NCBI GenBank assembly: GCA_973895155.1
Contig: OZ316891.1
Coordinates: 23,145,884-23,209,883 of the forward strand
Direction of reading: 5' to 3'
Length of the DNA stretch: 64,000 nt
From: Marsupella aquatica
Lineage: Eukaryota; Plantae; Marchantiophyta
In this document: one piece after another, positions 11,916 through 61,769 of the stretch
Position numbering within the stretch: the first letter of the stretch is position 1
How the letters are laid out: the number at the start of each line of letters is the position of its first letter
Program-made: the position numbers and the translations under genes
Notes under the pieces: model-generated
Seen by the model: the letters and a program-made list of their open reading frames with translations, nothing else
Databases searched by the model: none
Told to the model about the DNA's origin: nothing

Positions 11916-11996
11916 TATACCAATGACTCTACAATTATGACCGGTGTCTGGAATGACTATTGAGTATTTTAATCTTCATATCTCTTGGGTTCTTTA

Positions 11997-12432
11997 ATGA
12001 CTCTATAAGTAGTCATTTATGCAATAAGTCCATAATGACTGTATGTTATTGTAAACATTGATATATCATGATTTTTAGATTGACCCTATATTTAGTCATT
12101 TATGCAACAAGTCCATAATGACACTATGTTGTTGTAAACACCGATATATCCTAATTTCAAGTTTGACTCTAGAGTTAGTCATTTATGAGAGAAGTCCATA
12201 ATGATGATATGTTTTTGTAAACACTGATATGTCCTAATTTCAAGATTGACCCTAGAGTTAGTCATTTATGAGAGAAGTCCATAATGACGGTATATTCTTG
12301 TAAACACTGATATGTCCTAATTTCAAAATTGACCCTAGAGTTAGTCATTTATGGGAGAAGTCCATAATGACAATATGTTGTTGTAAACATTGATATATTC
12401 TCATTTTCAGATTGACCCTATATTTTGTCATT
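11997..12432. repeat. 83-bp tandem repeat, about 5 copies (CACTA subterminal region)
   Basis: agtcatttat recurs at 12011, 12094, 12177, 12260 and 12343 (degenerate at 12426). Confidence 0.92.
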
Positions 12433-12805
12433 TAACACCGTTGGTTAAAATGACGGTAATACATTTTTTGTCATTTATCACCATTGTCCAAAATGACCCA
12501 AATAGATTTTTGGTCATTTCAATCATTGTCCAGAGTGACTATAATGTTGTTAAACACTGATTTATCATTGTTGTTATTAATTGCGTCATTTAAGACATGT
12601 GTCTAAATTGACCATTTAGGGAAATTGGGTCATTTTGGTCACATCAGTCATTACATACATTATACAAAATGACGCAAAAGTTAACATTTTGTCATTTCAG
12701 TCCATTGGTCATTGTGGACAGTCATTCCCCTGTCATTCTTTTTGTGTCAATACAAATTTTGGTCATTTATTCATCTCCGTCATTGGGTGATTGGTCATAA
12801 ATGGC

Positions 12806-12822
12806 CCTGTTTTCTTCTAGTG
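12806..12822 (-). repeat. CACTA terminal inverted repeat (right end of element A)
   Basis: cctgttttcttctagtg; the same 17 bp occur at 50392-50408. Confidence 0.85.
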
Positions 12823-23654: not shown

Positions 23655-25225
23655 GGAGAACTTTGTGGCTCAAGAAAGTATTGATCTGACAAGTTGGTCA
23701 AGAGTTATATCTTCTTATTGTAGCAACTCTTGGGAAAATTAAGGTTCAATGTTGGCAGCCTAAAGATTTATTTCAAAAAGAGTTTCTTTGGCTGCCGCTG
23801 AGGAAGCTACTACCCTGAGCTTTCGGCCATTCTACTGGTCATGTTAAGTGATTTATTGAGGTCCGAGTACCGGTCGGATTGAGGACCTCCTGTCTCCCGT
23901 AGTGTATGAAGGAATAATGGCCCGAGCACAGATGTGCACCATAGGATACAGGTGAACTGCAAATTGCGCAAGAAGAAGTTGTGTGCAGCTTAAAACTGGG
24001 CATTGAAATGAACAGGTAGCCAGTTGAGTGACATTCTCTCTGGGAGGCCCGGAGGCCCGGAGGACAGAAGCTGACTGGTTGTTAGCTCGACTGAATATGG
24101 GAACCCGTGGTAAACAGGCTTCTAGCTTCTTAAAGTTCAGCAGTATGAACTGTACTAAACTTTCCTTGCTGAGAACTGGGGCTGATGTATTTAAAAAATT
24201 CTACGTTGTGGGACGGGGCCACTCTATTTACTCACGTTTTGTGTACAATTGCAACTTTGCAGCTTTGCAAAACGAGTCTGTTGTCTACACTGCGATAGGA
24301 TTGTTTTGTTTTAAACGTTCTTGTGGGATTGTTGGATAGGCTGACCCAGATGAACATGCTGGCAGGTTTTGCCCCAAGATCGAGCTGAATAGTAGAGATA
24401 GTTATTACTCCATGTTGCAATTTCTCCTAGATCGCCTTGGCTTCTCCAGGATGGCGTGCTAAGTATGAATCTGTAGATTGTACTTACAAAGGCTCTTAAT
24501 CAGGCTTTCTGTATTTTGCGATACACAAGTTCAAATTTCAATGACCAAGTGAAATGAGCTTCCCCTGCAAGTCTTGTTCATAGACTTAGCCTGTCTGTGG
24601 TTCCATCTCTTCTTGCTGTGGATGTTCGGTTCTTTACCGATGGATGAAGTTGTTGGATCGTGAATTTCTTTGTTTCATTTGCCGACTGTTTGCCGCAAGT
24701 ACATGGCCTCAAGTCTTAACTCACCAATTATTTACCGCGAAGTACATGCTCTCAACTACCTACACTCACATATTTTGTGTACCAAAAAATCTTTGATACT
24801 TGGGATGCGACTTCATTTCTTACATGTCGTTAACTCTGTACACTAATATTTGATCCCTTTGGTGGAAGTCATAAGACAGGCTAATATACCTAAGCTCCCC
24901 TAAATTAATAGAAATTGTTGTTTTCTAATTGCCAAATAATTGTATGAAGATTTCTCGGAGGTATAAGCTTGGAAACGTTTTCTGTGATCTCCAGACCTAA
25001 CTTTTCGCTCATAGATAAGTCCGAAGCTCACATGGGATCTCTGAAAATGATTCAAATGTAGTCCACTTTTGGTCATGAGGGCAGAAAAAGCTGTCAAGTA
25101 CCACACCTAGCTACCTTAATTCTCGATTGCCTTGCATGACCTACTTACATCAAATCAATTAATTCAACTCGGTTGACTTCACTGAATGGGCTTACTGAAT
25201 CCAATGAAGTGCTTTCAATGAATGG

Positions 25226-25357
25226 ACTGCATGGTATCAAGATGAAATTGTGGATGTGACATCAAATCACTACTGCATGGTATCAAGATGAAATTGTGAA
25301 TGTGACATCAAATCACAACTGCATTGTATCAAGATGAAATAGTGAATGTGATATCAA
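25226..25357. repeat. 46-bp tandem repeat, about 3 copies
   Basis: actgcatggtatcaagatgaaattgtg.atgtgacatcaaatcac starts at 25226, 25272 and 25318. Confidence 0.9.
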
Positions 25358-25856
25358 GACTTGTTGAGAGGAGAGGGGAGAAGAAATAGAGATAAAATCA
25401 AGAACCAGACAGAAACCATCTGCACGAAGTAGAGGACAAATATAAGTCGAGAGCAGTAGCGAGAATAAGGCTGGGATGAGGAATAAAATAGAAGTTTGTA
25501 GGAAGAGAAACTGGCACAGTAGGAGACTCGAATGTGGTGAAAAGAAACCGAGTTACCCATACAACAATGTATCAATCGATGCACTTCCAAGGAAACAGGC
25601 TCCGAAAGAACAGCACTGGTTGACGCATATAGAGAAGGACTGTGCGCGTTCTGGCATTTGAACGTACATCGACGTGTGAGGTACGCCTAGCGCTGGCAAC
25701 CAAACATTAAGCGTGATTCGCTACCTACAAAGAACACTGGCAAGAACCCATAGATTGCCTGAGGAGACGGTGCAGTTCGACCAAGGCGGTATCAAGCAGA
25801 GCTCGAGAGAAATAATTCGAGAGAAGCATTCATGAGCGCTTGAGCTCTGGCTGGCT

Positions 25857-27149
25857 ATGGTGGATCATCAGCACCAGAGCGAGGCGGCATCCTTGCCCCT
25901 TGCAGAGCCCGAGCCCCGGAAACCTAGCGCAAAGGCCTCGTTGTCGTGCCTTCCATGCATGGATGCACTGTGGTTCTGCTACTGTGAGCCTCCTCCATTC
26001 CAAAATTTATTTCCTTGCTTGTTTGCAACAGTCTTCGATGTGAAATTTGTTGCTGTCATGGATATAGCCGATATTATCGATTTGCGATCCATTTCTTTCT
26101 TCAAATTTAGGAAAGCTCGGTTTGGATTCTGTGTAGTAAGTAATCTTCCACAAAACTGTCCTCTCCTTCGTTTTGTGGGCTTCTCTTTGTTTTGAAATTC
26201 GTACCTCCGTAGAGCTGAACTCTCCCTCTGTCCTTCCGTACAGCAGTGGAATAGAATTTTTGATTCCGTGATCTTAAGAGCTCCTTTCCCGTTTTTACTG
26301 TTTGGACTTGCATCCTAGACCCTAAACTGTTACGTTTGTGTGGTCAAGTTTCAGCACTGTGTCGCTGCCTGTACTAAAACTCTTGCTCACTTTCGTAGAA
26401 TTACGTTAATGTACTAACTTGGAGTTGCACAGAATTTCGCCATATGTTTGATCTCCTTTTTTGCTTAACTCATGGAAATTACAGCTACGCACTTCTGCAT
26501 CTCTCTTGATTCCTTGCCAGTCTTAGGTCGAGGGGAATAGTTGTGGTGGTTACATCGAGGTCGTTTGAGATTCGAACTGTTGAATGTGTCCTCAAGGGGA
26601 ACTTTCTGTCTATTCTTTCTCAGCGTGTTGACATGGTGTGGGTTTGATTGAAGCTCCTGTTTACCAGATGAAGCAGTATTACAGGGATGGAACGTTTGAT
26701 AGCTGCGGTGGGAAGTGGGGCGATCTTTTCAACTGTATCTCCTTGAAGACTAAGTCTGCTGCAGACGTTGAGGTATTGCAATTTGCTTTTCAGATGATTT
26801 ATTGGATTGTTGTCAAGATCTTGCTCCCAACTCTGTCTAGCTTTGCCGTGGTTCACTGCTGTGTCTTACCCGAGCCAATCGTTCCCAAAGATTGGATCGA
26901 TAAGCACCCGCGCTGATTGTCTCCAAACAACTTCATACCCTTCTGAGTCTAGATCTATGTGCTTATTAGGCCCTCTTGAGATTTATATGATTTGCTCGCA
27001 TTCTTTATCAACGTGGCGTGGTAATGCTGGACCAGGCTATATTGAAGGAGCGGGGAGCAGCAAAGGAGAAAGAACATATTTGGAAATATAGGACAGAGGA
27101 GGAAGCAAGTGATCATTGGAAGCAGGAATTTGGACATTTACAGAAATGA
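25857..27149 (+). CDS. DUF3128 (Emi1/C22orf39-like) small twin-CX9C protein, 3 exons, 119 aa
   Basis: Exons 25857-25983, 26654-26772 and 27036-27149 (360 nt). Sequence: SCLPCMDALWFCYSPVYQMKQYYRDGTFDSCGGKWGDLFNCISLKTK..HIWKYRTEEEASDHWKQEF. Confidence 0.9.
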
Positions 27150-28424
27150 ATTGGCTGCGGATGTTCTGCAACCTGATTACCCAAACATAGGTAGGTCGTA
27201 GGCCCCCGACTGCTCATCAAGACAACTGCATACTTGAGGACGAGAAGTTTGCACATGAGGTTATTACAGGTGTATAGATCTCACCCTCATGATTTTCGAC
27301 CTTGAAATTTTGACACATGGACGAGGATAGATCCAGCCAGTGGCGAGGTGCATAGTTTTGCCGTGGCTGCAACATCGTTTCTATTCTTGCTAAACCACTG
27401 GTGTAAACATTCTGGACTCGGGTACGAGGCTCAGCATTTGTTGAAATAGATACCCCGTAAACAGTGGGTTAGTAAAAGAAGTGGATACAGAATGGGAATA
27501 TTGATGCTACAAGTTCATGTCCAATCTCTAGCCAACGAGAGCTCAGAGGTCCAAGCGTTTCAGTGATGTATTGCGCTGCCGAAAATCGCCAATTGTACTA
27601 GGGTCTTAATAAGTGTGGCTCTGTCTTATGATAAGCCAAGCAAGCAGAGGATTGTGGTGATAAGGGCGTTTACTTGAGCAGATCCATATAATTTGGATTA
27701 CTGGCTTTGTCAATGGCAAGTATAGTTGATGATGTGGTCAAAGTCTCTTGTGATTTCCCAGCCCTCGCGCCCATCATTCGAATCCCGTAAGTTGTCAATT
27801 TAGTTGTTGTCAATCCCGTAAGTTGTCAATCCCGTAAGTTGTCAACTTCGCGAGGATGAGCAATGTGAAGAATTCACGATGAGCGCATGCAGAGAACATA
27901 AGGAATAACAAGACCCATGGGCACAAATTTAGGCTTGCGAAATATCGGAGATGATAGACCTGTCTGCGATGGAAGAGATCACAGTCCTTACAGTCCTTAC
28001 TGCAGAAGCTTAGCTTTCCGAATGTTCTGTAGGATTTCCTCGAGAGCGAGAGCGCATGTACATTAATTTCCCCCCATAACGCCGGGCCAAATCCACCAGA
28101 CCGCATGGGCATTAAAACCAGCTTGTTTATAACAACCATGATCGAATACCAGCCATGCAAAAAAAACACCAGAGCAAATGGGCATCAAAACTAGCTTGTT
28201 TATGACAACCATGACCGAAATACCAATACAGACAGATCTTCGTGCAATAACTTACAGTTCATTTGACTGATCGGCAGAATGCTGGAGATGAATTCAGCTA
28301 TGTTCTCATCACAACAGTACATCACAACAGTACAGCAGAACGACAGTTGATCCAGATTGTTTGAGGCCATCCTGCTGAAAATTTGAAATGTCAATGCAAA
28401 GAGCATGTCAGGTTCATTTCACGA

Positions 28425-28580
28425 TGGCCATGAATTTCCAAGACCCAGAGAGAGATTCATGTAGATTTACGTACATCTTTGCATATACATAAATCACATC
28501 CTGGCCATGAATTTCCAAGACCCAGAGAGAGATTCATGTAGATTTACGTACATCTTTGCATATATATAAATCACATCCTG
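28425..28580. repeat. 77-bp tandem duplication
   Basis: tggccatgaatttccaagacccag...aatcacatcctg starts at 28425 and 28502, with one mismatch. Confidence 0.92.
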
Positions 28581-31500
28581 AGATGGTTCAGGTCTTATTG
28601 TTACTTATCGACTGTTTCATTGATTCTCTACCAACAGATACAGAGCATTGATCGATCATTCCCATACGCATATTGCAAGCAACGCATTCCATCCTCATAT
28701 GAAATCACATATAGATATGCAAAGATTTCTCACATGCCATGTACTCCTTGTAGATAACATTTATCTTCTAATACAAGCCTACAAACATATCGATAGACAA
28801 GCACCCTGTTGAATTTGGTTCAGGACCGGGTGTTGCTTGGTGACAGCATTACCCGAGTGTTGTGTTCACAGCACTGAGCATAGGCCGTATTCTTTTACCG
28901 GGAATGGACAGACTGTTTCCACTCACATATCCAGTGTCTTCATTCAGCCCCCGCCGAGATTATGCTATAGGAGACACAATTTCTAGTCCCATGTTTCTGG
29001 AGTGATGTCTAGATGGCTCTAGGGAGACATGGGCCAGAGATGAGTCATCCAGGCATACATTTTTTCTATTTCAGCAGTGTTCTAAATGTCATCCATTCAG
29101 TGAGAGACATCATTCATAGGTGAGTTATTAATCACAAAATGACATATGCTATGAACCTGATTTTGGTGCGTTCCCATAGAGTCACGATGTGCTGCCTGAT
29201 GGAGAGTCACTATTCCTCAATCCCTAGAGAGTCACTATTCCTCAATCCTTGGCTTGCTTTGCTCCAGTGTCCCACGATCTGCTTGGTCCCCCCAATCTGT
29301 CGTGTCAGTTGTTGTCTCTTCTTGGATTTAGAATGCTTTGCTCCAGTGTCCCTCGATTTGCTTGGTCCCTCCAGTCTGTCGTGTCAGTTGCTGTCTCATC
29401 TTGGATTTAGAATCGTTCCAGTGTTGGACGTGCTAGTGGTGGATTATGCTCATAAGGTGCTATGGCTGGATGGCTGCTGTTAGTAGCACTGATATCTTGG
29501 TGCTCACTTCAGGGTATCCCTCTATGATCTGTTTGGCATTGGACGTTCCAGATACCATTTGGGTAAATCAATGGCTCAGGTGGCCAGATATGTATAGTGG
29601 GAAGCTGCAATCACATTGCCCTTTCTTTTAAATACCTTAGTCAAGTTGTCCTTTCTTTTAATACGTTTTTGGAGTATGGGGCACAGTATACCTCTGTAGT
29701 GAAATATTGTGGCTCGTATTTGTCTTTTGTGTTACGAGAGGCCAGGCAGTATGAGTCGTATTTGTCTTTTGTGTTATGAGAGGCAATATGAGTCGTAAAT
29801 CCTGTCAGGAGAAGAGGTTACAGGTGTGTAACCATTTTTACAGGGGCCTGCTATAGTCATAATCTGGTGTCCTGAAAAGTTGAGTCGGTAACCTCTTTCC
29901 GGGCAAGAGTTAAGTACGCTAATGCAGGGCAGGGCTGGGGTTATAGGCTATAACCTGCTCCCAGAATATTCAAAGAAGCTTCCCGGCTGCCGCCGGTCAG
30001 TTTCTTTTCATATTCCGGACGCAGGGTTACAGCCTAGCAACCCTGCACCCAGACCTGCATTACCCTATACGTATTTGTCTTTTGTGTTCACTCGTACCCT
30101 CGATCTTTTGAGAGAGAGAGAGAGAGAGCAAAATATGGATTCCCCCGAGAAAAAGAGACGATAGTGATCTCGCTATAACGAAGGAGAGTAAAAGGCACTA
30201 CAAGTCACGTGCATGTCTCTTATACGAAGCAGTGAGTTCGAAAGAAGAGGGACGAAACGAATTTCGTGCGAGGTGGCGTGCTGGGTGCTTTGTGAATGTA
30301 AGACGGGCCGAATGACCTTCTAATAATGCCGCGTCGTGGTTCCAAAGCAGCATGCATCAGACAGCAAACCACAAAAAGTGATCTAGAGAATTGGAAGAGC
30401 TAGTGATCGAGAAACGGCTAACATGTGCTTCCTCGCCGAGATTTATAACAGACAAGTCTGCGTGGAACCCAGTTTGATCTTGGTTACCAAAGCAAGAATC
30501 GGATGGCTTGTGAAGAAGGCGTACCTCCCACCGTCGATGTACGTTCAAATGCCAGAATGCGCACTGGTTAGTCCTTCTGTATTTGCCGTAACAGAGTCAT
30601 CGGGGATTGTTCGCCAGGTAGCTCCAAAATTTAACCAGTGCTCTGTTCTTGCGGAGCTTGTTGTGTTGGAAGCGCCTCGATTGCTACATTGTTATCATTC
30701 GCTCGGTTTCTTCTCAACACAATTAGAGTCAATACTGTGTTGTTGTCGTTCTTACAAAATTCGATTTTGTTTCTCAGCCTTCATTTATTCTCGCTTCAAC
30801 TCTCGACTTATTTTTGTTCTCGACTTTATTCTCAAGCTTTCCATTATTGCTTTTTGTCTGGATCTTGATTTCATCTCAATTTCTTCTCCTCTTAACAGCA
30901 AGTCTTGATGGTACATTCTCGATTTCATCTTGATGCAATGCAGTCGATACATTGAAAGTAGATGATTTTTCATTCAGTAGATCCATTGTCAATCGATTTG
31001 ATTGAAGTAGGTCCATACAAGGCAATCGATAATCAAGTAGGTAGCTGTGTTAGGATTTGAAACCGTCTATATTTTCGTTCTGCTCCGGTAATTAAGCAAT
31101 GACACCAATTCCTTTGGATCCTGCACGCCACCGCTATCTGTAAACCAAGTTCAGGGTTTAGGGTTGTCCAATTTCTTCAAGCTTCAGGCATGTCTCGAGA
31201 AAATAAGCAACAATGATGAAATTCAACACCCCCAAAATTCAGAAATTTCAATGAGAACTTTCAATGTTGCACGTGGCCTTTGATCTCTATGGAGAATTGT
31301 GAAGCTGAAAGATGAACACAAGCACATTTCTCCTCCTTGGAACATACTTATATTGATCTCCACACAACGTCCCAGACCTTTATGGAATCCCCGAGCAGGT
31401 CAATGTGATTGATTCCTTGTGCTTGCACATGCTTGATCGATTGCTTGTTTTACTCATTCACGCACACAATGAATTTTGCAGTACTGCTTCAACATTCTGC

Positions 31501-49491: not shown

Positions 49492-49898
49492 GAGACACTT
49501 ATGGATATTTAAACCAAAAATCTATATCATGGATTGTTCATGTTGTTTCTTAATTAATATTTCATACACCATTAGTGTGGTAGGTATTTTCATTTTGGAC
49601 TCCTACTTTCAAAAGAGGTCATGCATATAAGTGACATGGGTACTCCCTCCCTTATCCCTCCTCCCTCTTTGAACCCAAACACTCCTTCCTCTTCCAAAAA
49701 CTCCATAGCTTTTTCTCCTCCCTCCCTCTTCGCTAAAGTCTCTCCTATTTTTAGTAAACCCTCTTTGGACTCCCTTCTTCCTCCGTCCCTCATCCACCTT
49801 CCAACTCCCTTCCTCCCTCTTTCACCTTTCACCTCCCTCCCTCCTCCTCCCCCATTCAAACTCTAACCTAGATGCACACACAAGTCTAACATAAACGT

Positions 49899-50408
49899 TT
49901 GCGAACTGTTTGCGAAACTAAACAAATCCCAACCAAATCGCAATTCTGCCATTTAAACCGTTTCTCAATTATTCCATACTATACGCTTCACTATTTTGCG
50001 ATATCCAGACCATCCCACCTTTACCATCCATATCGTTTCGCACATTTGCCATACAAACCCATCGCAAATTGTTTGAAGCTAACCTTTTCGCAAACATCCT
50101 CCAATACTAATTGTTTTGCATCATTAATGTTACCGTGGTTTCAGACTTTCGGAGCGGTCATGGAGCCTTCGTAATGTGTTTTGTAATCTCTGTAGTTTCG
50201 CAAACTATTGTGATACAATAAAGTTCGCAAAATGTTTGCGATGCAAATCACATGGAAGACCAAAGTTGCGATACCACAAGTATCGCAAATTGCGATGCGT
50301 ATTGAGTCATCAACGGTTTGAAGCATCTGGAATCGCAAACGTGTGTCCGGACTCAAATGAGCTTCGCAAAAGGGCAAAATATGTTGTAGTGCCTGTTTTC
50401 TTCTAGTG
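49899..50408. repeat. CACTA subterminal repeats (TCGCAAA/TTTGCGA, about 14 copies in both orientations) and terminal inverted repeat
   Basis: Motif copies between 49899 and 50370; terminus at 50392-50408. Confidence 0.85.
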
Positions 50409-52180
50409 CCACATGATAGTTTGAATCCACTCCGAATAGAGTTTTGTGAAAAAAATGGAGGCTTTACACCGTGCCAGGAAATAGGAGATTTTTTTACTGA
50501 TACGAGCAAAAACTTTCCTCATATCAGGAGAGTTTTCCTGTTATCAGCAATGTTTTTACTCACATCAGGAAAAACATTCAAGGAATTGTCATCCTCCGTA
50601 CTGTTGTGAGCAACACCAATTAAAAAACATTCAAAAAATTCCATGAAAAGTGGAGTGCCAAGTCTCTCGAACCACTTGAAAATGTTCAAAACCAATTAAA
50701 AACAAAATGGGGCACCTCCCTAACCTCAAAAGGAAGATTTTGAGGAAAATATGTAAATAATACTAGTGCCAGGCGCTATCAATGACTCAACCCTATTTTA
50801 CGAAACCAAACATTGTCTAATACATTCATTCTCAATAAGCTTCTGTATATGATAATGCTGTTGGAAAACGACAAAGTACTGACCATTGGAACGTTAACTA
50901 CATAATAGACACCTCTTTAAATACTACCCTAAACTTTGTCGTTCCAACAAGAGACGTATTTCTCCAACGGTGAGTATAGGCTGACTCGACAACGTTGATT
51001 CTCGAAGGTCCAGTTTGAAAACATTCTTATAAATCCAATACAGATGTTTGCAAGGCAGGAAGGGTTTGCAGTGGGCATGACGACGATAGAAATCTTTGCA
51101 AGAACAGCACGGGAAGCAGCAAATCTGAACCCAATAGGCAATGATAGAGTGGTGACCAATGTGTGTTTGGATGCAAAATTGTTTGCCCCATCCATTTCCT
51201 GTCGCAACATCCCTTGAACAGATTATTTTCATTTCTTCTTTATCAGCTGCCTCAATCTTCTTATAGTGCGATTTAGTTAGATGCACTCTCTGTAGGCACG
51301 TCCTCCCGTTTCGAGATAAACAGCGAATTGTCGACTGAAGCAGATTGATCCTTTCCGGGAAAACATTGACATCGATTTGAAGATCTAGTCCACTTGGTGC
51401 ATTTCTTACACGATCACCTTCACCTCCGATCGATATTCCGTTGCCCTTCAGAAACTCTACCTCCGCAGTAGAAAGATTTGTAGTCAATGCAATGGGCAAG
51501 TGATCACAAGGTGGTGGAACATTCACCACACCTTTTCGAGGACGACTTTTGTAAAAAACATTATTCGGACAGAACCAGATCAGTTCTGGATGTGGTTCCC
51601 CTCTGAAAATTTGCGCTGCTCGAACTGCGATACCAACGACTCCGTTTGACGTCCGGTAGCCTACTTTCTTCAATCGATTTCTACATTCGTCACGATCTCC
51701 ATGTCCGCCAAGGGATCCATTGCAGACTGGGCCAGCACCATGCTTCGAAGTTCTCCTAATATGCCATGCTCCAGAAGGAACATTGGACTCCAACACGGAT
51801 GGGGTTACTTCTTCAATAACATGGACTGGGGTCGTGACTGGAGTTGCAGATGACCTCGTCTCCATCGGAGGAGGAGGTGTCCGCTCTTCAAGACTAGCTG
51901 AGGCATCGCTCTCTGAACTATTGACGACTACACTCTCTTGGGGACCTGGTTCAGAAGGAATCGCAGAGAATTCCGTTCTATTGAGATTTCTTCTCTTCAA
52001 ACCTCGGGTGTTTGGGGTCGTAATGAGGATAGTGTCATGCCTGTGGGAGTCTTGCGCAGAGACATTTCCAGTAGCATGTCCCTTCCTCTTTATTGACCGG
52101 GTCTGTACATCCCCGCTCAGGGGTCTCACTATATGGGGACCTCCCCATCACCTGCGACGTTTTTAGGCCTCGGACCCCAT

Positions 52181-52411
52181 AAAATGCAAGAAAAAATTAT
52201 TATTTTTTAACCCCTATAAAGTTGGAATATTCTTGGAATATTCCAAAAATTGGATTAAAACGGCCCTAATGTTCTTATAAGTCTCAAAATTGAATTTAAA
52301 GACCCTATTGTTCTTCTACAAAAATTCTTAAGTCTTCCCTTACAACCAATAAAATGACCCTATCCTTCGTCGCACGTGATATGCCATTTTTGTGGAAGTG
52401 AAACCCCCGAG
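52181..52411. mobile_element. MITE fragment related to the 40454-40698 element
   Basis: About 120 bp of similarity: aatgaccctatccttcgtcgcacgtgatatgcca..ggaagtgaaacccccgag versus aatggccctatacttcgtcgcacatgatatgcca..ggaagtgaccccctcgag. The left TIR and TSD are not evident. Confidence 0.7.
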
Positions 52412-52778
52412 CATCCCCGTTCAAAGGGGAATTCCTTTCCAAATCGAATTCAGCCGCATTGGAAAGGAAAAGGTTTGAAGCTTCTTCAAACAACCTTGGG
52501 GAACCCGCTAGATCTGCAGAGCGAAAAGCCAGCTCAAACACAGTTGGGCCATTCCCTCTGTTCAATCCTCTCTTGTAAGCCGTATAGGCTGCAATTTGAG
52601 AGATCGCTCTATTCTGGTCGGTTTCACACCCTTCAAAGACTCCAACCTTCTTCTTCAATTGCCAGGCAATCATTGACGCGTGAGACGACTCAGATCCACC
52701 ACAATTTGGAATCATTGCCGCTTCCTCTGCACTCTTGCTCTGCAGAATTCACCGACAAGGTTAGATTTAGGACTTGAA

Positions 52779-52931
52779 TAGCGCCAGGCGCTAGCCAATG
52801 AACATATAGAAATAATAGCAGATATGATCAATTTGAACCTGTATGAGTAGCGCCAGGCGCTAGCCAATGAACACATAGAAACAATAGCATATGTAATCAC
52901 TTTGAACATGTATGAGTAGCGCCAGGCTCTG
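52779..52931. repeat. 69-bp intronic tandem repeat, each unit carrying the 15-bp palindrome
   Basis: tagcgccagg starts at 52779, 52848 and 52917, inside intron 52740-52956. Confidence 0.92.
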
Positions 52932-55109
52932 ACCAACGATTGTTTTGAATACTTACCAATCAAATAAAGTTTCCCCATTGGCGCCATCGGACAACCCACC
53001 ATGAAATCCAACCTTGCAACATTCGTAATTTACCAGGATAACAATTCCCTGCCCTCCACCATGAATCATTTCTCTAGAAATACGATATGCCTTGATAAAT
53101 GACTTTGCATTCCGCAACCTATCCCATAGGGCACGATGTTCACTCTGCTTTCCCTCAGGAATGCCTTCAATTGAGTGTCTCCGAAATGACTGAAAGAAGT
53201 GAAATGCATCTGATCGCTCACGTTCGGGATGAGGAAGTCCCCCAAAGAACACATTCCTCACAGCATTCCAACCAGCTTGAGCATTGTCCGCCATAAAACC
53301 ATGAATGTGGACATCGTGAAGACCGTTCTCATCAGCCACCTCCAACATTAAACGCCAAGACCTCTCAAGGGATTTTGTATCTTCTGCTTGCAACTCGCAA
53401 GTGAATATCGTGCAAAGTGCACGATAGTTATGGTCATAAACATGTACACTAAATGTAAGCCAATCCTTTGTCATTTGGTGCATCACATCAAAACTTACCC
53501 ACGAACCCTCAAGAGGCCCTCCGGGACTCATCTTTCAAAGAAGGTCCAGACCATAGCCTTCACCCTTAGTGGACATCTTGAAAATATGTGCACTCTCATC
53601 TCTAGACCCTTGTCCCGGCAACAAGAACCTTTGCAGAAATGGGAATGAAATGTTCTTCTGCATGCTTACCAGAAATTCCAATTCACCTCTGCCTTTCTGG
53701 TCTTGACGGATACTCCTCAGAAGGTTCACAAATTTCTGAGGCGTTGAGATGACTTGAAGAGATTCAAAAATCTTGGTCTCTTCTATTGGGATCATGTCTT
53801 GAACTGACGACTCACACATTGCCTTAAAAAGAGACGAGGTGACGGTGTTCTTCATACCCACCGCAGTTGCACGCGGATTCAAAGTCAAACCTTGTTCCAT
53901 GTGCATCTTTGCAACTTTTTCTGCCTCTCTTGAAAAAACTTGCTTGCTCGGATGGTTATGATGTCCGATGTGAATGGCAAGCCGCGACATATGCTTAGCA
54001 GACTCGGCATCAACTTTGGAAGATGCGTACATGTAGAACATCATCGCTGGACAGAGCTCAACACAAAATGGGCGCTCCCAACAATAATGACAGACAATCC
54101 CACCCTCAGGAATGAGTTGCCCGACTACGTGTGGTCCAGAAATCTTAGGAACTCTTTCCCAGAACTTTGCATTCCTCCTTTTATGTTCTGCACAGAACTG
54201 ACATGAATTGTTACGACATTCCAGAGAACCCGTGCAAAAGACTTTTCCAAAATCCCACACCTTTTTTGGGAGAACATTTGCGGAAGTCGTAACAATCCGA
54301 GTCCAATAGTAGCAGTCCTTGCCGCGATCCATGTCCCGGAGGCGTTCACCTTTTGAGCAAACTCCAACAACTGGAGGCAGTTTGAAAACAATATTCCCAT
54401 TGTACGTGCCAGGCAAGCTTGATACTTGCTCAAATCGGTAATCATTCCTTTGCATGAATCTTGAGATCTCACTCTGGGCTTTTGATTGAAGAATCGTATC
54501 AAGAGCACTCCTTCGGTACACAACTGAATTGGTCGTCCGCCCATGGACCGTCTCCACTTTGACGTTGTTTTGAGGAAGATGAAACTTTGCCAAATCTTCA
54601 TCATCGCTACTATCTGAAAGGTCAATCAAATTGACTTTCAGCTTCCCCTTTGAGGAGGATGGCACCTCAAATTTTCCCAAACTAACAATGTCATACTTCA
54701 CCCCACCGCACAACCTCCAATACCAAACTCCTCCAATGAAATAAACATCAACCACCACTTCCTCTCTCGAGATAACTATTCGTTGTATGCTTTCCCTGGG
54801 AATTCCAAACCTGGTGGCAAGATATTCCTCAGAAACTTCATCATTTTTCTTAGGAGCGGCGAGCAGGATTGCCACGAGGTCACCAGGCGGACAGCGAGAA
54901 ATTACAATTCGCGAGTCCATTGGAAATGGCGTACAGAAATGTAAGGCCACCTAAATTCATTTGTGCTGAATAAAACCGTTACGAATATGACAAAGTGACC
55001 TATTAGCAATGAATGCTTGTCGTATTCTAACGGAATTACACATGTCAGCACCTACCAAGAAAATCTTATTGATCAAAATTTGAACATAAATTTCAAGGCA
55101 CACAAATAA

Positions 55110-55637
55110 TAGCGCCTGGCGCTAAGTAAGGGAGATGAAAACTTGAGGCTCCATATGCACATATTGATGGATGGTTTGCCAAGAATCATCTCAGATGACA
55201 AGATTGTATCGAGTACACCTTTGATAGCGCCAGGCGCTAGCAAATATGTATCATGCATATCTGGTCCGTAACGATAACTCCCAAAGCTAGATTACGTGCG
55301 CTATCAAAGTTGTACTCTATAATCAAACGGTAACTTTAAAGGGTAATCAGGTTAATGTTTATTAGCGCCCGACGCTAGTAAAGTATTCGAAAAGAAATGT
55401 TATGTTCTTGAAGGAATATTATCTTCCGTGTTATATATGAGAGGATAAAGAGACAAGAACGACATCTCCCTATGATAGCGCCAGGCGCTAACAAAACTTA
55501 GAGTGAAGTTTTGAAGGGTCTAGACTGCCAATTTTTACTAGCGCCTGGCGCTAGTAAAAACTTATATGCTAAATATGATGTTCATGTTAGATTCAAGGAA
55601 CCTTCACAACGGACAACAATGATAGCGTCGGGCGCTA
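55110..55637. promoter_or_regulatory. Cluster of six TAGCGCCWGGCGCTA-type palindromes between the divergent transposase and ParB-MTase genes
   Basis: Copies at 55110, 55225, 55363, 55476, 55539 and 55623. A regulatory or binding role is inferred. Confidence 0.6.
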
Positions 55638-56047
55638 TCTAATAACGACTCGCTATTCAATGGTAACTTCAACGGACATTTTAGTCGATTCGAGTATAAT
55701 ATTTATGGAAGTAGCAGGTCCACGATAACTTAAACGGATACCTCTTTACGAACTATGAGGTCTACTGGTCAGTCCCAGATTTAATCAACGGTGCATTTCG
55801 CTCCAGGTGTCCAACGTCCCCCGACTCACATGCCGCCAGAAGTCCAGTCATCGTACATTTAGGGTACTTTGCTTCCTTTGGAATTGTTCCTGCTGAGGCA
55901 GATTCTTCTCATTTGCGTTGGTGTCATTGAGGGATGCGTGTAAGGAGAATCCGCACGATTAAGCGTACGAACTCCCAAACAAAATCCCGTATGAAACAAA
56001 ATTGAACGGCAAAAATCTCCGCATCGCAGTTGAGAGAGTATATCAAA

Positions 56048-59000
56048 ATGGGGTGTGGGTCGCCAAACCATTCCCAGTCCTCAGAGTCATCGTATTCCAG
56101 TTGTGTTTCAAGTCGAAGAGTAACTCGTTCCATAGCGCAGTATCCTCTCAGTCAAGTTGAGCTTCCCTGTCCAAAACCGAGGCTATTGAAAATGGAACAT
56201 GTTGGTGAGTTTGCCGTTCAGAATGTCGATGACATTGAGAAATTGGTGGTCGATGTCATTGAAAAGCACGTGATGTCATTTGGAGTTGATGCGAATGGGT
56301 TACCAAAGGAGCCTCCAAGAATTCCTTTATGTTGTCTCGTTCACATGGAGGTTGTGCGCACTCTTCAGAGGAACAGTCAATCGATTGAGAAGCTGAAGGA
56401 CTCGTTCCGGACATCTGGATACAATTCGTCCATTGGCATGCGCTTTTTTGTTCAACCATCCAACGCTGAAGGTAATCCTCAGATTTGTACAGATGAAATT
56501 CGCGGTACTTGGGATCCTCTTTGGATCATGGAGAACGACTTGTTCGAAGCGGAATGTGAATCAGACCCCGCTTTCCACGTCCTCAAGGACAAAATGTTCT
56601 ATGTTTTTGATGGAAATCATCGGTTGTTTTCGTGGACTCAAGTCACAAACGAGAGTCCAGAGAATCCTAAGTATCATCCTCGCGTGCAATGCACAATTTT
56701 CAAAGGAGAGAAGGCATCAATCATCGAGATTGAGGCAGCGATGCATATTGTTAACCAGTGAGTTTTCTTTCACCACCGACTAGTCTTCTCAAATTTTATT
56801 GTTTCCCTTCGACAATTTCTCTCTTTTTCAGATTGTATTGTTAGGTTAGCGCCAGGCGCTATTTCTAATGTCCTCAATTGCACAGGACGGGACAGGCAGT
56901 GGTAGAGTCTTCTTGGATTTTGGATGCGGACAGAATTAGGAGGATTTTGGCTCATGATCTGGAGTACTACAAACCCATAATTGATGAGGCAAATTATGCA
57001 AAATTCGAGAAGACCAGGAAAGAAACCCGAAAGGGTTCTTGGTTTACCAAGAAGATGCCGATGGAGGCGTTGGTATACATCTTGTGTGAAAACAAGATCA
57101 AATTGTACTCGCAGCAATTTCAGGTGATGAAGAACCAGGCGAGCAGTTCCGACGCTCCATGGTCGGTCGAAGAGACAAATCTTTGTCACAGTCAGATGAT
57201 GAAGGAAGCCACTAAGGAGTGGATTGTGAAAACTCCAAAGCTCACTTCCTTGCTGAGCCCAGAGTTTGAAGATTTCATGGACACTTGTGCTGAGATGTAT
57301 TGTCTTACAGATCGACTCAAACGTGAAAAGGTACCTGAAGCTGTATTCTGCACCATGGATAGAGCTCGCTTGTTCACTGCCAATTTGGCATTAGATCCAA
57401 AATTGCAAAGTACATTGCTTGTTGCACATTGTACTCCCGAGTTAAGGAAACAGTTTTTCCATCCGCTCGGAGTATCGGACGACCCCGTGAAGTAGTGGTG
57501 CCACACCTGGCATGTTTGGAACACAATTGAGGGGATGGCAACTGCTCTCCTCGAGGCATGTTTGAAGGAGGCTATGGGTTCATGCACCGAACAACGTCTT
57601 ACAACACTCGGTGGAGAACTGATTCCCTTTGAGAAGTTGAAGGCTTTGATTGTAGATGATTTTAGAAAGTATGGGGATTCCGTAAGGGCCAAGTTTTTCA
57701 ACACTATTTGGGAGTCCAAGTACGCTGACAAGGAGGATTTGAGTGAAGTTAACCGCAAGAGAGCCAAGAGATATTTGTATCGATACTATGTGAAAATGGA
57801 GAGGAGTGACCCGGGCTATTTCTGGGCTTATCCTGGTGCCTTCCAGAAATGGGCCGTTGTGAATATGAGGTCCGAAGTGTCTGGAGACTTTCTTGGGTAC
57901 ACCATGTACCCACCGGAGGGAAAATTTCCCCCAAGGAAAATGGCAAAGTGGGAGGTTGTGCATTGTCTGTGGTATCTTGACACAGACAAGTGGAATTCAC
58001 CGTTTGATGAGATAGAGAAAGATGCTTTTCACAAGTTATCAAAGAATTTGGAGCCCAGAAACATTTTGTCAAAGATGAAGCAGGGAATTGATGCCAAGAT
58101 TGATCTCTCGGCGATAGAGCTCCAACGGATTTGTGAGACGCAAGTCGTCCAAGTTGCAAGGAGTCGAAAACCAAGAGCAAAACCCAAGCAAGAAACAACC
58201 CCAAGTGGATCTAAAAAAGAGACCAAAAAAGTGAGTTCCTAATTTGGTAGCTTCAAATCTTCGTAATTTTCAGTCTTCTATATTGCTAGCGCCAGGAGCT
58301 GTTATTAATATAACAATTTCTCTAGCAGGATCTCGGAAATCAGATGCGGGGTTGGTGTCGGGTAATGCTTTGACTGCAACTCCGGAGCCTTCTCGTGACA
58401 ACAGTCTTGGGAAGGATGAGGATCGACCAGAGGGGTCGGAGACCCCGAAAGATGTGAGTGCTCCGCCAGTGGATGCCACCAGCACTAGGAAGAAGAAGAA
58501 ACGTCACGTTTCTACTTCCGGTGGGTCTCATAGGGAAACGCTTGCGGCGACTGGTTTACAGAGGAATGTGGGGGACTTCAAGGGAAATAAAACCAGGCAC
58601 ACATTCGTGGAGTCTACCTTGGCAGAGTTCTACGATAGTGTGTTTCAAAAGGAAGAGAAGCCATCTTGGGTTTCTCAGGTAGAAACCTGGGGAAAGAATC
58701 TTGTGAAGTCGGGTTCTCGATCAAAGGGGGTTATTAGAGGTGGAAAAGTTAGGACATTTGGTGTGGATGCAGGATTTCTGTATTTGCCTACCGGATTGAG
58801 CCATCACTTTTGGACAAGAAAGTCCCGAAATGGAATGTGCAAGACCACTCTCTCCCTGGGGCTTTCTTTAGCGCAATGGACCCTTTCCTATCGGACGACG
58901 GAGTTCTGGCTATTCTTCACACTGGAGAATATGACCAGATTTTGGAAGTGATATCTGCATGCTAGCAGTCGCAAAAGTTTGACTGTATTGCATCGTATAC

Positions 59001-59765
59001 AGTTGTCATGGGGTTTCCTATGTACAAACCTAAGTCTGACACTCAAGTAATTAATGTCATTCATTTTGGCCAGCGCCAGGCGCTAATCTTGTATCTCTTT
59101 AATTTTGGCCAGCGCCAGGCGCTAATCTGTGTCTTTTTGTTTCATGGTCTTACTATTCTATTGTTTTGTAGATCTTCACGCTGCGGTTGGATATATTCTG
59201 TCGGGGTTTGCGAAAATCAACAATACCGAAAGATCCCAAGTTCCATCCATTGTTGCCTTCCGAAGATCCTTCAATTACAAATCTGATCGGATTTCCGTCT
59301 TTAAAGTTGGATCCAATACCAGAACTTGTGGCTTGTGGAAACGGGAGGCTCACAGTTGGTTTTATGCAGTCTGTTATAGAGATCATCTCTTGTCTAGGGG
59401 ATATTGTGATCGACTGGACCTGTTGCTCAAGAAGTTCATTCGTGGCGGGAGACTATTGTGGTAGATTTGTTGTTGGGGTGGAAGGGCGAACAGAGTTTGT
59501 CACGGCTTCAACGTTTACCTTAGCTGACCTTTTGGAGCCAAAGTCAGCTTTGACTCCAGAGAAGAGATTGTCAAGGAAAGGGAAAGAGAAGTTGGACAGA
59601 GTACGATCAATTTTGAACTTTGATTCCGAAGAGAGCGAGCCGGATGTTGCTGGGGAATCTGATGAAGAAGAGATTCCAGTTGTCAATCTAGGAGACGATG
59701 AGGCAGAGAAAAGAAATCCCTCGAGATCAAAAAGTGATTCCGAGGATGAGGAGTCTTCTGAGTAA
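56048..59765 (+). pseudogene. ParB/Srx-like N-terminal domain fused to a degenerate beta-class N4/N6 DNA-methyltransferase-like domain; 4 exons
   Basis: Exons 56048-56758, 56886-58230, about 58329-59046, and 59172-59765. ParB-like: IPLCCL..VVRTL..SIEKLKDSF..GY..MFYVFDGNHRLFSW. MTase-like: VDAGFLYLPTG (motif IV position), FLSDDGVLAIL, and FMQSVIEIISCLGDIVIDWTCCSRSSFVAGDYCGRFVVGVE (motifs X-I-II). Stops at 57493 and 58963; frameshift at about 58800. Confidence 0.72.
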
Positions 59766-59839
59766 TGCTCGTAAGCTCACTCCAAATGTACGACTGTTTT
59801 TAGCAACATATTTTTGGTAAACTTAGTGTTTGTTTTAAT

Positions 59840-60151
59840 ATGGATGAAACTTTCAGGTCAGAGTGGAATACGCGGAGAAGGTTTGAACTCCGGAAAACGA
59901 TCGCTGAAGCTATGGAGGTTACACCAGAAAAACCATTTATTCTCCCATCCTATGCTGAGAAAGCCGCCCAAAAAGTAGAGAGGGCTCAGACATTATCTTG
60001 GGAAACAAAAGGTCTGAGACTTAGAAGAGGTTCTGATAGGAAGTTTTTGGTGAACAAATTCGTGGATGACATGTGCCGGAGTGAGTTTGTGAACGACGAG
60101 GCGGAGTCGACCAATAGATCCGATAGTAGTGAGACAGAGTCATCTGAGTAG
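59840..60151 (+). CDS. Small hypothetical ORF (103 aa) or additional exon of the MULE cargo
   Basis: Open ATG-to-TAG frame with protein-like composition, 75 bp after the ParB-MTase stop. Its acidic ending (ESSE*) mirrors that gene's ending. Confidence 0.35.
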   Translation: MDETFRSEWNTRRRFELRKTIAEAMEVTPEKPFILPSYAEKAAQKVERAQTLSWETKGLRLRRGSDRKFLVNKFVDDMCRSEFVNDEAESTNRSDSSETESSE

Positions 60152-61769
60152 ATCAGTTATGAGAACCCCATTTGTATCAATTCCATCGTATATAAATGTT
60201 CAGACGTGAACAAATATTTGTAGTCAAGTTGGTATATTATGTTCTCAAGTGAGCTTGGAGAAATATGAAAGTTCAATATTTCACTTTAGCGCCTAGCTTC
60301 ATGCCAGAGACTATTGCAAAAATTGAATTCAGAATATTTTTGGGACATGCTCTGGGTGACTCGTATTTGTATAGCGCCTGGAGTTAACCAAATAACCCTA
60401 AACTTTCAGAATTTTCAAGGAACGAAAAAGATTTGGAAATGACTTTGTTTTTGATAGCGCCAGGCGTTAGCCAATAATATGCCTTCCGGAAGTAGTATTA
60501 CCGTTGAAGTTTTGTCGGTTAAGTTCATAAATTAATGAACGTTAGCACCCGTTGGGGAAATATTCCCCGTCGGTCCATTCTCATGAGTTGGTTTGGTCGT
60601 ATGTCCGTTGAATCAAAAAAACGGAGATACTTTGAGGGGGCATACATTCGAGTAATCCCTCCATACGAAGCTGTTCACATTGTGCTCTTGCGGTTTGGAA
60701 AGTATACTCTGCGCTTGAAGGTTGTTTCTTGCGCTACATGCGTTGAGTAACCCGATCAAAGTAACCATCGATGGACGATATGGAGCGTCCTGGTTTCAAT
60801 GTCGATAACGTTGTGCGGCCCCAAAGGAAAGTGCCAGCATCGGAGGAGTAGACCGATCAGACGGTCAACTTTGGGTCATCGACATTGATTGCAGACACCG
60901 AAAGTCGCCTGACCGAGACTTCCGACATAAGGAATCGTCTCCAACTGCCTGCGGACGAGGGTATGAGCCCGGGTGAACGGAACATTCCTTGGCTTCCTGA
61001 TTCTCCTCCGAGGCCATTTCAGTAGAGATTCTCAATTCATTATCCAACTCCCGAACATCCTCCATCGAATGTCTTCTGGGATGTGGAAATTCAGTCTGCT
61101 GAATTTCTTGGTCGTATCAATTTCTATGATACAAACCTTCCTGAGTCTTCATCGCACCCTTTGCGAAGGCTTCCAAGTGCACGGTACGTTGCAACTCGAA
61201 CATTTGGCTTTTGACAGAAGCCAAAACACAAGAAGGCAGGGCTCATCGACGAATGTGAGTCTTCGTTTGATCCGGGATCATCCTAGGATCATCGTGGTCA
61301 TGATCTTGGGTAGCGCCAGGCGCTACTCATTTCATGGAGGAGAACCACATCCGGTTCGTAGTTTGGAATTGGAGGAGGTGAACTTGCTGCTTCATTTTGG
61401 GGTTAGGTTAGGCTTGTGAATGGGTTTTTTCACCGTGGATTGCTCCGTTAGAGTGAGGTTGATTATAGTTTGCAGGGCTCAACGACGGATTTGGGTCTTT
61501 CTATGATCCGGCATTTTGAATAGACTTGTGGTTAGGCTCTTGGGCCTCCCGGAGATACTTGTTTCGCTGATGCGATCTATGATCCGGTGAATAATTTTGA
61601 ATTGCTGGAGGTGGACTTTAGGCTCCTCATTTTGGAATTTTGTATTGTGCTTCATTAGTAGAAGCGACGTGTATACACAATGTTTTCAATTTAGTAAAAA
61701 TCATTTTGGCTTGAGTTTTGTTAACTGGTATGATTACGTTTTTTCATTTTGAGTAGCGCCTTGCCGAGG

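What the first reader, a model, noticed from the sequence alone, without database searches (positions are those of the whole stretch)
58763..59500. Bacterial-type beta-class amino-methyltransferase fold in transposon cargo, with altered catalytic motifs
Seen: the motif order is catalytic-position motif first (VDAGFLYLPTG, where DPPY/SPPY is expected), then FLSDDGVLAIL, then the SAM-binding block IEIISCLGDIVIDWTCCSRSSFVAGDYCGRFVVGVE (expected LIxxxSxxGDxVLDPFxGSGTTxxAAxxxGRxxIGxE). Established: that order defines beta-class N4C/N6A MTases; ParB-MTase fusions occur in phages and bacteria; Marchantia has horizontally derived 4mC methyltransferases (MpDN4MT1). The palindrome core is CCWGG, a site type used by the N4C enzyme M.MvaI. 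Inference: this is either a decayed active 4mC/6mA writer or a catalytically dead DNA-binding or base-flipping derivative. TE carriage could be a route by which such enzymes entered bryophytes.
Basis: partly seen in the sequence, partly recalled or inferred. Interest (0 to 1): 0.82.

Follow-up and report, generated by a model that had tools for sequence, protein, structure and literature searches.

The report
Plant transposon's disarmed bacterial DNA methylase
A plant jumping gene carries a helper gene ending in a bacterial-type DNA-methylating domain whose catalytic residues are replaced in every close relative where they could be read, so the protein likely binds, rather than marks, a short palindrome scattered through the element's own non-coding DNA and may shield it from host silencing.

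Summary
The flagged stretch is the last large domain of a five-exon gene (about 1,170 aa) facing away from a Mutator-like transposase in a multi-copy element of about 11 kb. The fold is real: relatives hit PF01555, align with bacterial beta-class methylases in beta order (HHalign 98.5%, 198 columns) and match them in predicted structure (TM 0.56-0.60). This copy is a pseudogene (two stops, two frameshifts). The catalytic loss is not decay: motif IV reads [F/A/Y/C]-L-P-[T/N/S] in 7 of 7 readable family sequences (this one, four from Calypogeia fissa, two unnamed). The SAM-side Asp, glycines and motif II acid are mostly kept. One intron-bearing sister sequence keeps the Asp (DIPE). A 15-bp palindrome occurs 17 times in the element, all non-coding, and nowhere else in the window. 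ParB-plus-methylase accessory genes are already described in algal transposons, so the design is known. New here: a land-plant family with a conserved pseudo-methylase. Best reading: a self-binding, VANC-like anti-silencing factor (binding and anti-silencing are inferred). A link to MpDN4MT1 is not supported.

The parts
58570..59520 (+). Beta-class amino-methyltransferase-fold domain (about aa 721-996 of the model), split by intron 3; motif IV replaced
58763..58795 (+). Motif IV position, VDAGFLYLPTG; aligns in register with IDFILTDPPYL of a plasmid methylase; Y-L-P-T stands where D-P-P-Y is expected
59412..59483 (+). SAM-side motifs I and II (DWTCCSRS ... VGVE); family majority D-W-x-x-G-x-G and E/D
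   Evidence: other copies have G at 59430
56192..56757 (+). Exon 1: ParB/Srx-like domain with a DGNHR motif (weak support)
   Evidence: PHROG 1033 E 0.015, DGQHR domain E 0.039, 1 of 40 shuffles reaches the HHalign score
56886..58230 (+). Exon 2: middle region of unknown fold; stop at 57493 and one base missing in the A-run near 58225
   Evidence: last part homologous to P0036
58329..59046 (+). Exon 3 (acceptor at 58325 or 58328): linker and catalytic half of the methylase fold; frameshift near 58800, stop at 58963
59172..59761 (+). Exon 4: motif VIII, TRD-like stretch, SAM-binding half, acidic tail
59857..60151 (+). Exon 5: small C-terminal module also present in the Calypogeia homolog P0036
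   Evidence: blastp of the model to P0036, aa 541-1161, 31.8%, E 2e-87
50924..54920 (-). Broken Mutator-like transposase gene (GCM-like Cys/His region, DDE-like core, SWIM-like end; family call from motif reading only)
   Evidence: PHROG RNase H E 0.18; no Pfam or PDB hit
50764..61325 (.). 17 copies (up to 2 mismatches) of the palindrome TAGCGCCWGGCGCTA: 6 between the two genes, 4 in cargo introns 1-3, 3 in a transposase intron, 4 downstream of the genes
50410..61760 (.). Approximate extent of the element in this window; both ends are cut by other repeats, no TIR or TSD found
   Evidence: depth profile

Best explanation
The stretch encodes a real beta-class DNA amino-methyltransferase fold that is the last large domain of a transposon accessory protein and lacks the catalytic motif in all 7 readable family members, so it is likely a conserved pseudo-methylase in a protein predicted to bind the element's own 15-bp palindromes and so likely to counter host silencing. 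Shown: the fold, the gene structure, the divergent layout beside a transposase-like gene, the family-wide motif IV substitution, the non-coding placement of 17 palindromes, and that this copy is dead. Inferred mechanism for intact copies: (1) the ParB-like front part, or the helical region behind it, loads as a dimer on the palindromes as ParB does on parS; (2) the methylase fold has kept its shape and part of its SAM pocket but not its chemistry, and grips or covers the DNA at these sites, which are dense in CG and CHG cytosines; (3) this keeps host C5 methylation off the shared promoter region and the introns, or recruits factors that remove it, so both genes stay expressed, as VANC does for VANDAL elements. 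Odds by step: real fold 0.97; no amino-methylation of DNA 0.7; palindromes are this protein's sites 0.65; anti-silencing is the output 0.45.
For: Fold: profile hits only beta-class structures at E below 0.5: 5hek, 5hfj, 6pbd, 2zie, 1g60; 10 of 10 structural neighbours of P0006 are PF01555, TM 0.56-0.60 over residues about 1-260; CcrM top, E 1.3e-4. Motif IV: YLPT, FLPN (3 times), ALPT (twice), CLPS in 7 of 7. A diverged copy in run X1 differs at three synonymous positions and keeps YLPTG (loose end at 58801). In the bdelloid enzyme SPPY to APPA abolishes activity (PMC8885841). The HPTxKP motif before the SAM helix is replaced by R-x-[ST]-V-G-F. The motif I Phe is present in 0 of 32. Palindromes: 17 inside, 0 in the other 52 kb; 0 of 17 in exons where coding DNA is 58% of the element; 6 sit between the two start codons. 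Precedent: VANC binds motifs in introns, intergenic and terminal non-coding regions of its own Mutator-type element (PMC5735166). ParB-domain accessory genes lie beside inverted-repeat arrays in red algal transposons.
Against: No binding, methylation or expression data. The ParB call is weak (E 0.015-0.04; 1 of 40 shuffles reaches the score; no PDB hit). The 7 readable sequences are only about three lineages. The SAM-side Asp (31 of 32), glycines (29 and 26 of 32) and motif II acid (29 of 32) are kept, which an active enzyme would also need. A sister sequence, L010, keeps the Asp. Both of my AlphaFold models are poor in the SAM half (mean pLDDT 56.5 and 61.7), so the pocket could not be inspected. 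The transposase itself could be what binds the palindromes. Exclusion from exons is also expected from selection on protein sequence alone. CpG depletion is only a little milder in the element (o/e 0.78) than in its neighbours (0.51-0.55), and age alone could explain that.
Confidence: 0.5

Rival explanations
1. Intact copies are active DNA amino-methyltransferases with a rebuilt active site. They write 4mC or 6mA at or near the palindromes, marking the element as self or blocking host 5mC.
For: SAM-side residues are conserved. L-P of motif IV and the W of a following P-x-W-N are invariant in 7 of 7. The sister L010 has D-I-P-E. The algal ParB-methylase accessory proteins are predicted writers (PMC12477816). 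CCWGG core in 15 of 17 palindromes.
Against: Neither the polar first residue nor the aromatic fourth residue of motif IV is present in any of 7. Loss of those two kills N4CMT. The motif I Phe and HPTxKP are also gone.
Confidence: 0.2
2. The protein is a transposition helper, like TnpA or MURB. It binds the palindromes to fold the element or to set transposase transcription, and the dead methylase is a dimerisation or DNA-gripping scaffold with no role in silencing.
For: Same structural evidence as the best reading. 6 of 17 sites lie between the two start codons. Extra ORFs needed for integration are known in MULEs (PMC6446971).
Against: The sites are spread through internal introns rather than massed at the ends, the pattern reported for VANC targets. 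The true ends are missing here, so end arrays cannot be excluded.
Confidence: 0.17
3. The domain still uses SAM but has changed substrate, to a protein or RNA.
For: SAM-side residues are kept while DNA-base contacts are lost. Shifts of amino-methylases to RNA after transfer to eukaryotes are common (PMC4738411). The fold searches also return RNA and protein methyltransferases.
Against: RNA amino-methylases of this fold keep DPPW-type motifs. The fold hits cover only the generic Rossmann half at Z 6-9.
Confidence: 0.09
4. The gene is a captured bacterial methylase decaying neutrally, with no role for the element.
For: This copy has two stops and two frameshifts in the gene. Of 30 listed coding differences from other copies, 19 are non-synonymous (the list is the best-supported 40 of 385 rows).
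Against: Open, alignable relatives at 30-45% identity. The same motif IV substitution across lineages. Diverged copies align in exons and drop out across introns 2 and 3 (joints).
Confidence: 0.04

Closest known systems
ParB + N4C/N6A methyltransferase accessory protein of Ectocarpus Sola1-1_Ec32 (PMC12477816; passages and supplement rows seen)
   Same: About 1,100 aa accessory gene on the strand opposite the transposase, ParB-like domain plus amino-methyltransferase domain, proposed to bind and modify its own element.
   Different: Here the host is a land plant, the transposase looks Mutator-like rather than Sola, and the catalytic motif is replaced family-wide. The paper predicts an active writer; its motif was not shown in what I read. 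Sequence homology was not tested.
Plavaka accessory genes PAG2/PAG3 of Bostrychia and Chondrus Mutator elements (bioRxiv 10.1101/2025.02.11.637652; passages seen)
   Same: PF01555 and ParB-like domains as transposon cargo, also in Mutator elements; inverted-repeat arrays beside the ParB gene proposed as binding sites.
   Different: There ParB is fused to a 2OG oxygenase and PF01555 to a SET domain, in separate genes; the repeats are tandem arrays, not dispersed single palindromes.
VANC of Arabidopsis VANDAL elements (PMC5735166; passages seen)
   Same: Mutator-type element with an accessory protein and short motifs in introns, intergenic and terminal non-coding DNA.
   Different: A functional analogy only. 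VANC motifs are 9-bp, non-palindromic and in tandem repeats; no ParB or methylase fold is mentioned in the passages seen; its activity is demonstrated, this one's is not.
Prokaryotic beta-class amino-methyltransferases (M1.HpyAVI, CcrM, M.MboIIA, phage ParB-methylase fusions)
   Same: Fold, permuted motif order, SAM-side Asp, glycines and acid; ParB-before-methylase order as in L008, L015, L016.
   Different: No (D/S/N)PP(Y/F/W), no motif I Phe, no HPTxKP; about 500 aa between ParB and methylase; introns.
MpDN4MT1a/b of Marchantia (bioRxiv 10.1101/2021.02.12.428880; abstract and passages seen)
   Same: Beta-class amino-methylase fold of bacterial origin in a liverwort.
   Different: Keeps TSPPY, is active, is a host gene with no extra domains. 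No evidence here of shared origin.
Inactive methylase domains: METTL14 and the DIRS1 retrotransposon methylase (PMC4738411; passages and section 8 seen)
   Same: Conserved adenine-methylase fold with disrupted catalytic residues; the DIRS1 case is transposon-borne.
   Different: Other methylase clades; DIRS1 is a retroelement polyprotein domain related to PCIF1, proposed to bind RNA or RNA polymerase II.

Membership tests
Beta-class N4C/N6A DNA methyltransferases (PF01555) | Permuted order: motifs IV-VIII, TRD, then X, I, II | tested here: met
   HHalign 98.5%, 198 columns in register; the N-half of the model matches the C-terminal strands of unpermuted methyltransferases
Beta-class N4C/N6A DNA methyltransferases (PF01555) | Rossmann methyltransferase fold | tested here: met
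   Atlas model of P0006, TM 0.56-0.60 to PF01555 clusters; Foldseek CcrM E 1.3e-4; my own models are poor in the SAM half
Beta-class N4C/N6A DNA methyltransferases (PF01555) | Catalytic motif IV (D/S/N)PP(Y/F/W) | tested here: not met
   0 of 7 readable family sequences; sister L010 has DIPE
Beta-class N4C/N6A DNA methyltransferases (PF01555) | SAM-binding motif I (D-x-F-x-G-x-G) and motif II acid | tested here: inconclusive
   D 31, G 29, G 26, acid 29, F 0, each of the 32 proteins matched out of 39; both glycines absent in this copy
Beta-class N4C/N6A DNA methyltransferases (PF01555) | Methyl transfer to the exocyclic amine of A or C | not testable with these tools
   needs an assay or kinetic sequencing
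ParB-methylase transposon accessory proteins (Sola1-1_Ec32 type) | N-terminal ParB-like domain | tested here: inconclusive
   E 0.015, E 0.039, 1 of 40 shuffles as high, no PDB hit
ParB-methylase transposon accessory proteins (Sola1-1_Ec32 type) | Amino-methyltransferase domain in an about 1,100-aa gene on the strand opposite the transposase | tested here: met
   1,169-aa model on +, transposase-like gene on -
ParB-methylase transposon accessory proteins (Sola1-1_Ec32 type) | Sequence homology to the algal proteins | not tested
Mutator-like elements (MULE) | MULE DDE transposase with WRKY-GCM1-type DNA-binding domain and SWIM finger | tested here: inconclusive
   motif patterns read by eye against recalled consensus; no Pfam or PDB hit; RNase H E 0.18
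Mutator-like elements (MULE) | Terminal inverted repeats and 8-11 bp target-site duplication | tested here: inconclusive
   none found; both ends abut other repeats
MpDN4MT1-type plant 4mC methyltransferases | TSPPY motif and no extra domains | tested here: not met
MpDN4MT1-type plant 4mC methyltransferases | Common clade in a tree | not testable with these tools
   MpDN4MT1 sequence not held; the tree lacks it
VANC-like anti-silencing factors (works-like claim) | Short motif accumulated in the element's non-coding regions | tested here: met
   17 of 17 non-coding, 0 outside the element
VANC-like anti-silencing factors (works-like claim) | Protein binds the motif and lowers 5mC on cognate copies | not testable with these tools
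   needs EMSA/ChIP and methylomes

The most novel reading that the evidence does not exclude
Bryophyte transposons took a phage-type ParB-methylase fusion and turned it into a self-targeting chromatin shield: a ParB clamp that loads on parS-like palindromes in the element's own introns and promoter and carries a disarmed, SAM-sensing base-flipping domain that holds CG/CHG cytosines away from host methylases. This would be a second anti-silencing system in land plants, independent of VANC, and L010 would record the step at which the writer lost its chemistry.
Probability: 0.25. Interest if true: 0.85.

Novelty: new variant of a known kind. Interest (0 to 1): 0.55.

Why it matters
VANC is described as the only proven case of a transposon binding and remodelling its own chromatin. 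The ParB-methylase accessory class is so far a prediction from algae. This family gives a land-plant version with an obvious 15-bp candidate site, in liverworts, a group with transformable models, so the class becomes directly testable. If the protein works without catalysis, the common reading of these cargo genes as 4mC/6mA writers needs revising, and a sequence-specific methylation shield could be a tool. It does not, on present evidence, explain where Marchantia 4mC came from.

Tried and rejected
No whole genome is held for the window, so genomic copies could be seen only through laid contigs. Word-index searches with exon 4 and exon 1 among longer proteins found nothing; the tool calls this weak evidence, so a full-length ParB-plus-methylase relative was not found and the fusion rests on this copy's splice model. 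Single-sequence scans of exon 4 gave no Pfam or PDB hit. Locus scans: metagenomes with the single exon, none; viral contigs, none; prokaryote genomes, 4 ordinary methylases. No RNA holder listed. My two AlphaFold models failed in the SAM half; VIA-align gave only generic Rossmann and Alba-like matches, best Z 9.6 and 8.4. No TIR or TSD found. Transposase family not confirmed by Pfam, PDB or plasmid tblastn. The synonymous/non-synonymous count on 40 of 385 listed differences was uninformative. Earlier-finding look-ups by sequence and place were blank. Literature searches found no land-plant description; Iyer 2011, cited for green algae, was not read, and bioRxiv supplements were closed. PMC10288648 and bioRxiv 10.64898/2026.08.24.746577 had no occurrence of ParB or methyltransferase. 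No complex prediction was run.
Full report
What is there. The flagged stretch belongs to a five-exon gene on the + strand: 56192-56757, 56886-58230, about 58329-59046, 59172-59761 and 59857-60151, with GT-AG introns. Read through with X at its breaks it gives 1,169 aa. Residues 541-1161 match the Calypogeia fissa protein P0036 (31.8%, E 2e-87), which supports the last two splice joins and the fifth exon. This copy is dead: stops at 57493 and 58963 and single-base losses near 58225 and 58800. Contigs from four public runs (two studies) show other copies with the missing bases and with C at 58963. On the 1.7-kb stretch 238, 205, 572 and 427 contigs were laid, many under 95% alike, so this is a diverged multi-copy family. 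On the - strand, 54920 to 50924, lies a broken transposase-like gene. By eye it has a GCM-like Cys/His region, a DDE-like core and a SWIM-like end (patterns recalled; PMC1702500 seen as a listing only). No library confirmed the family, so 'Mutator-like' is provisional. Summed contig depth is of one order from 50670 to 61349 apart from one small insertion, and jumps on both sides, so the two genes behave as one repeat unit. Its ends are cut by a CACTA end at 50408 and a far more abundant element from 61760.

Is it a beta-class methylase fold? Yes. Exon 4 alone is borderline. It finds 33 relatives among 1.84 billion representatives; the named ones are from Calypogeia fissa. Of 28 scanned, 21 hit PF01555 at E up to 0.1 and 2 pass the cut-off. 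The family profile hits M1.HpyAVI, CcrM, TTHA0409 and MboIIA entries in the PDB. Seven family sequences that span the catalytic half align to 11 prokaryotic methylases over 198 columns at 98.5%. That comparison set was itself picked by likeness to the SAM half, so I tested the catalytic half separately: score 26.8, reached by 0 of 30 column shuffles. Independently, the ESM Atlas model of P0006 (pTM 0.55) has PF01555 clusters as all 10 listed neighbours, TM 0.56-0.60 over about 200-220 residues. My own two models were confident only in the catalytic half; Foldseek put CcrM first for both (E 3.5e-3 and 1.3e-4).

Is the odd motif decay? No. Motif IV reads YLPT here, FLPN in three and CLPS in one Calypogeia protein, and ALPT in two unnamed proteins: 7 of 7 lack both the polar first and the aromatic fourth residue. 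These are about three lineages. A diverged copy in run X1 keeps YLPTG with three synonymous changes. On the SAM side, among 32 of 39 proteins matched by the pattern, the motif I Asp is in 31, the two glycines in 29 and 26, the motif II acid in 29, and the Phe in 0. HPTxKP is replaced by R-x-[ST]-V-G-F. This copy's DWTCCSRS is extra decay; other copies have Gly at 59430. One metagenome contig, L010, holds an intron-bearing sister gene with its intron at the same place as intron 3, motif IV as DIPE and WRGPNEK at motif X (family HMM 48.5 bits; one in-frame stop). It confirms the register. In a tree of 21 rows (P0038 left out as truncated) the 7 eukaryotic rows form one side of a branch (99/94), with L010 outside the motif-less six (94/91, unstarred); long branches meet, the root is a midpoint, and no donor can be named.

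The palindromes. TAGCGCCWGGCGCTA occurs 17 times with up to 2 mismatches between 50764 and 61325 and 0 times in the remaining 52 kb, even at 3 mismatches. None lies in an exon although exons are 58% of the element; six lie between the two start codons, four in cargo introns 1-3, three in a transposase intron. Flanks differ, so the 15-mer is the conserved unit. Each holds two CG and two CHG-context cytosines. The front of the protein has a DGNHR motif and a ParB-like pattern, with weak support.

How it most likely works. Shown: fold, layout, family-wide loss of motif IV, placement of the sites. Inferred: an intact protein loads on the palindromes through its ParB-like part, and its disarmed methylase domain grips or covers the DNA there, keeping host cytosine methylation off the shared promoter and introns. 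The model is VANC, which binds motifs in the introns and intergenic DNA of VANDAL elements and causes loss of methylation (PMC5735166, passages). Loss of the Ser and Tyr of SPPY abolishes 4mC writing in the bdelloid enzyme (PMC8885841, passages), which is why I rate an active DNA writer at 0.2 and not higher; the kept SAM-side residues and L010 are why it is not lower. A pure transposition helper (0.17) and a protein or RNA methylase (0.09) remain open.

Comparison with what is known. The design is in print. Ectocarpus Sola1-1_Ec32 carries a 1,104-aa ParB plus N4C/N6A methylase gene opposite its transposase, and the authors propose a class of self-modifying accessory proteins (PMC12477816, passages; supplement rows). 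Red algal Plavaka and Mutator elements carry PF01555-SET and ParB-oxygenase genes beside inverted repeats (bioRxiv 10.1101/2025.02.11.637652, passages; supplements not seen). Inactive methylase domains are known in METTL14 and DIRS1 (PMC4738411, passages and section 8). I was led to the Ectocarpus paper by earlier notes of this scan and read the passage myself. My searches found no land-plant case and no report of a family-wide dead version; Iyer 2011 was not read and may cover some of this. The domain works like neither MpDN4MT1 (TSPPY; no extra domains) nor a canonical beta methylase, and fails membership of both on the catalytic motif.

Verdict. Observation confirmed; interpretation partly supported. 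A new variant of a recently described kind: a land-plant, probably bryophyte, transposon accessory protein with a conserved pseudo-methylase and a dispersed 15-bp candidate site. Interest 0.55; 0.85 if the anti-silencing clamp reading is true (probability 0.25).

Noticed in passing
L010:464-1202: Intron-bearing sister gene from a metagenome contig that keeps the catalytic-position Asp (DIPE) and a WRGPNEK motif; may represent a related eukaryotic methylase subfamily closer to activity. One in-frame stop; transposon context unknown.
   Followed up: partly
window 61754-61760: The junction to a very high-depth element falls at the centre of a palindrome (left half TAGCGCC only), and other copies of that element continue leftwards with different sequence. 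One case only; could hint that the palindromes are break-prone.
   Followed up: no
window 52108-52411: A 304-bp high-depth insertion interrupts the transposase gene; contigs of all four runs skip it, with 8 letters fitting either side, as for an 8-bp target-site duplication.
   Followed up: no
window 49890-50408 and 12783-12822: CACTA-type ends (…TTTTCTTCTAGTG) at 50408 and 12822; the first has a subterminal array of TTTGCGA/TCGCAAA motifs (11 matches in 49898-50364).
   Followed up: partly
window 8700-12500: Tandem array of about 578-bp units followed by 83-bp units next to the CACTA end at 12822.
   Followed up: no
window 59857-60151: A small C-terminal module conserved with Calypogeia P0036 and with no library hit in PADLOC; function unknown.
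   Followed up: partly
window 61236-61635: A 165-bp direct repeat pair (68% identity) near the right end of the element.
   Followed up: no
window 25200-30970: Inverted repeats about 5.5 kb apart (arms 25203-25674 and 30532-30967), probably another DNA transposon.
   Followed up: no
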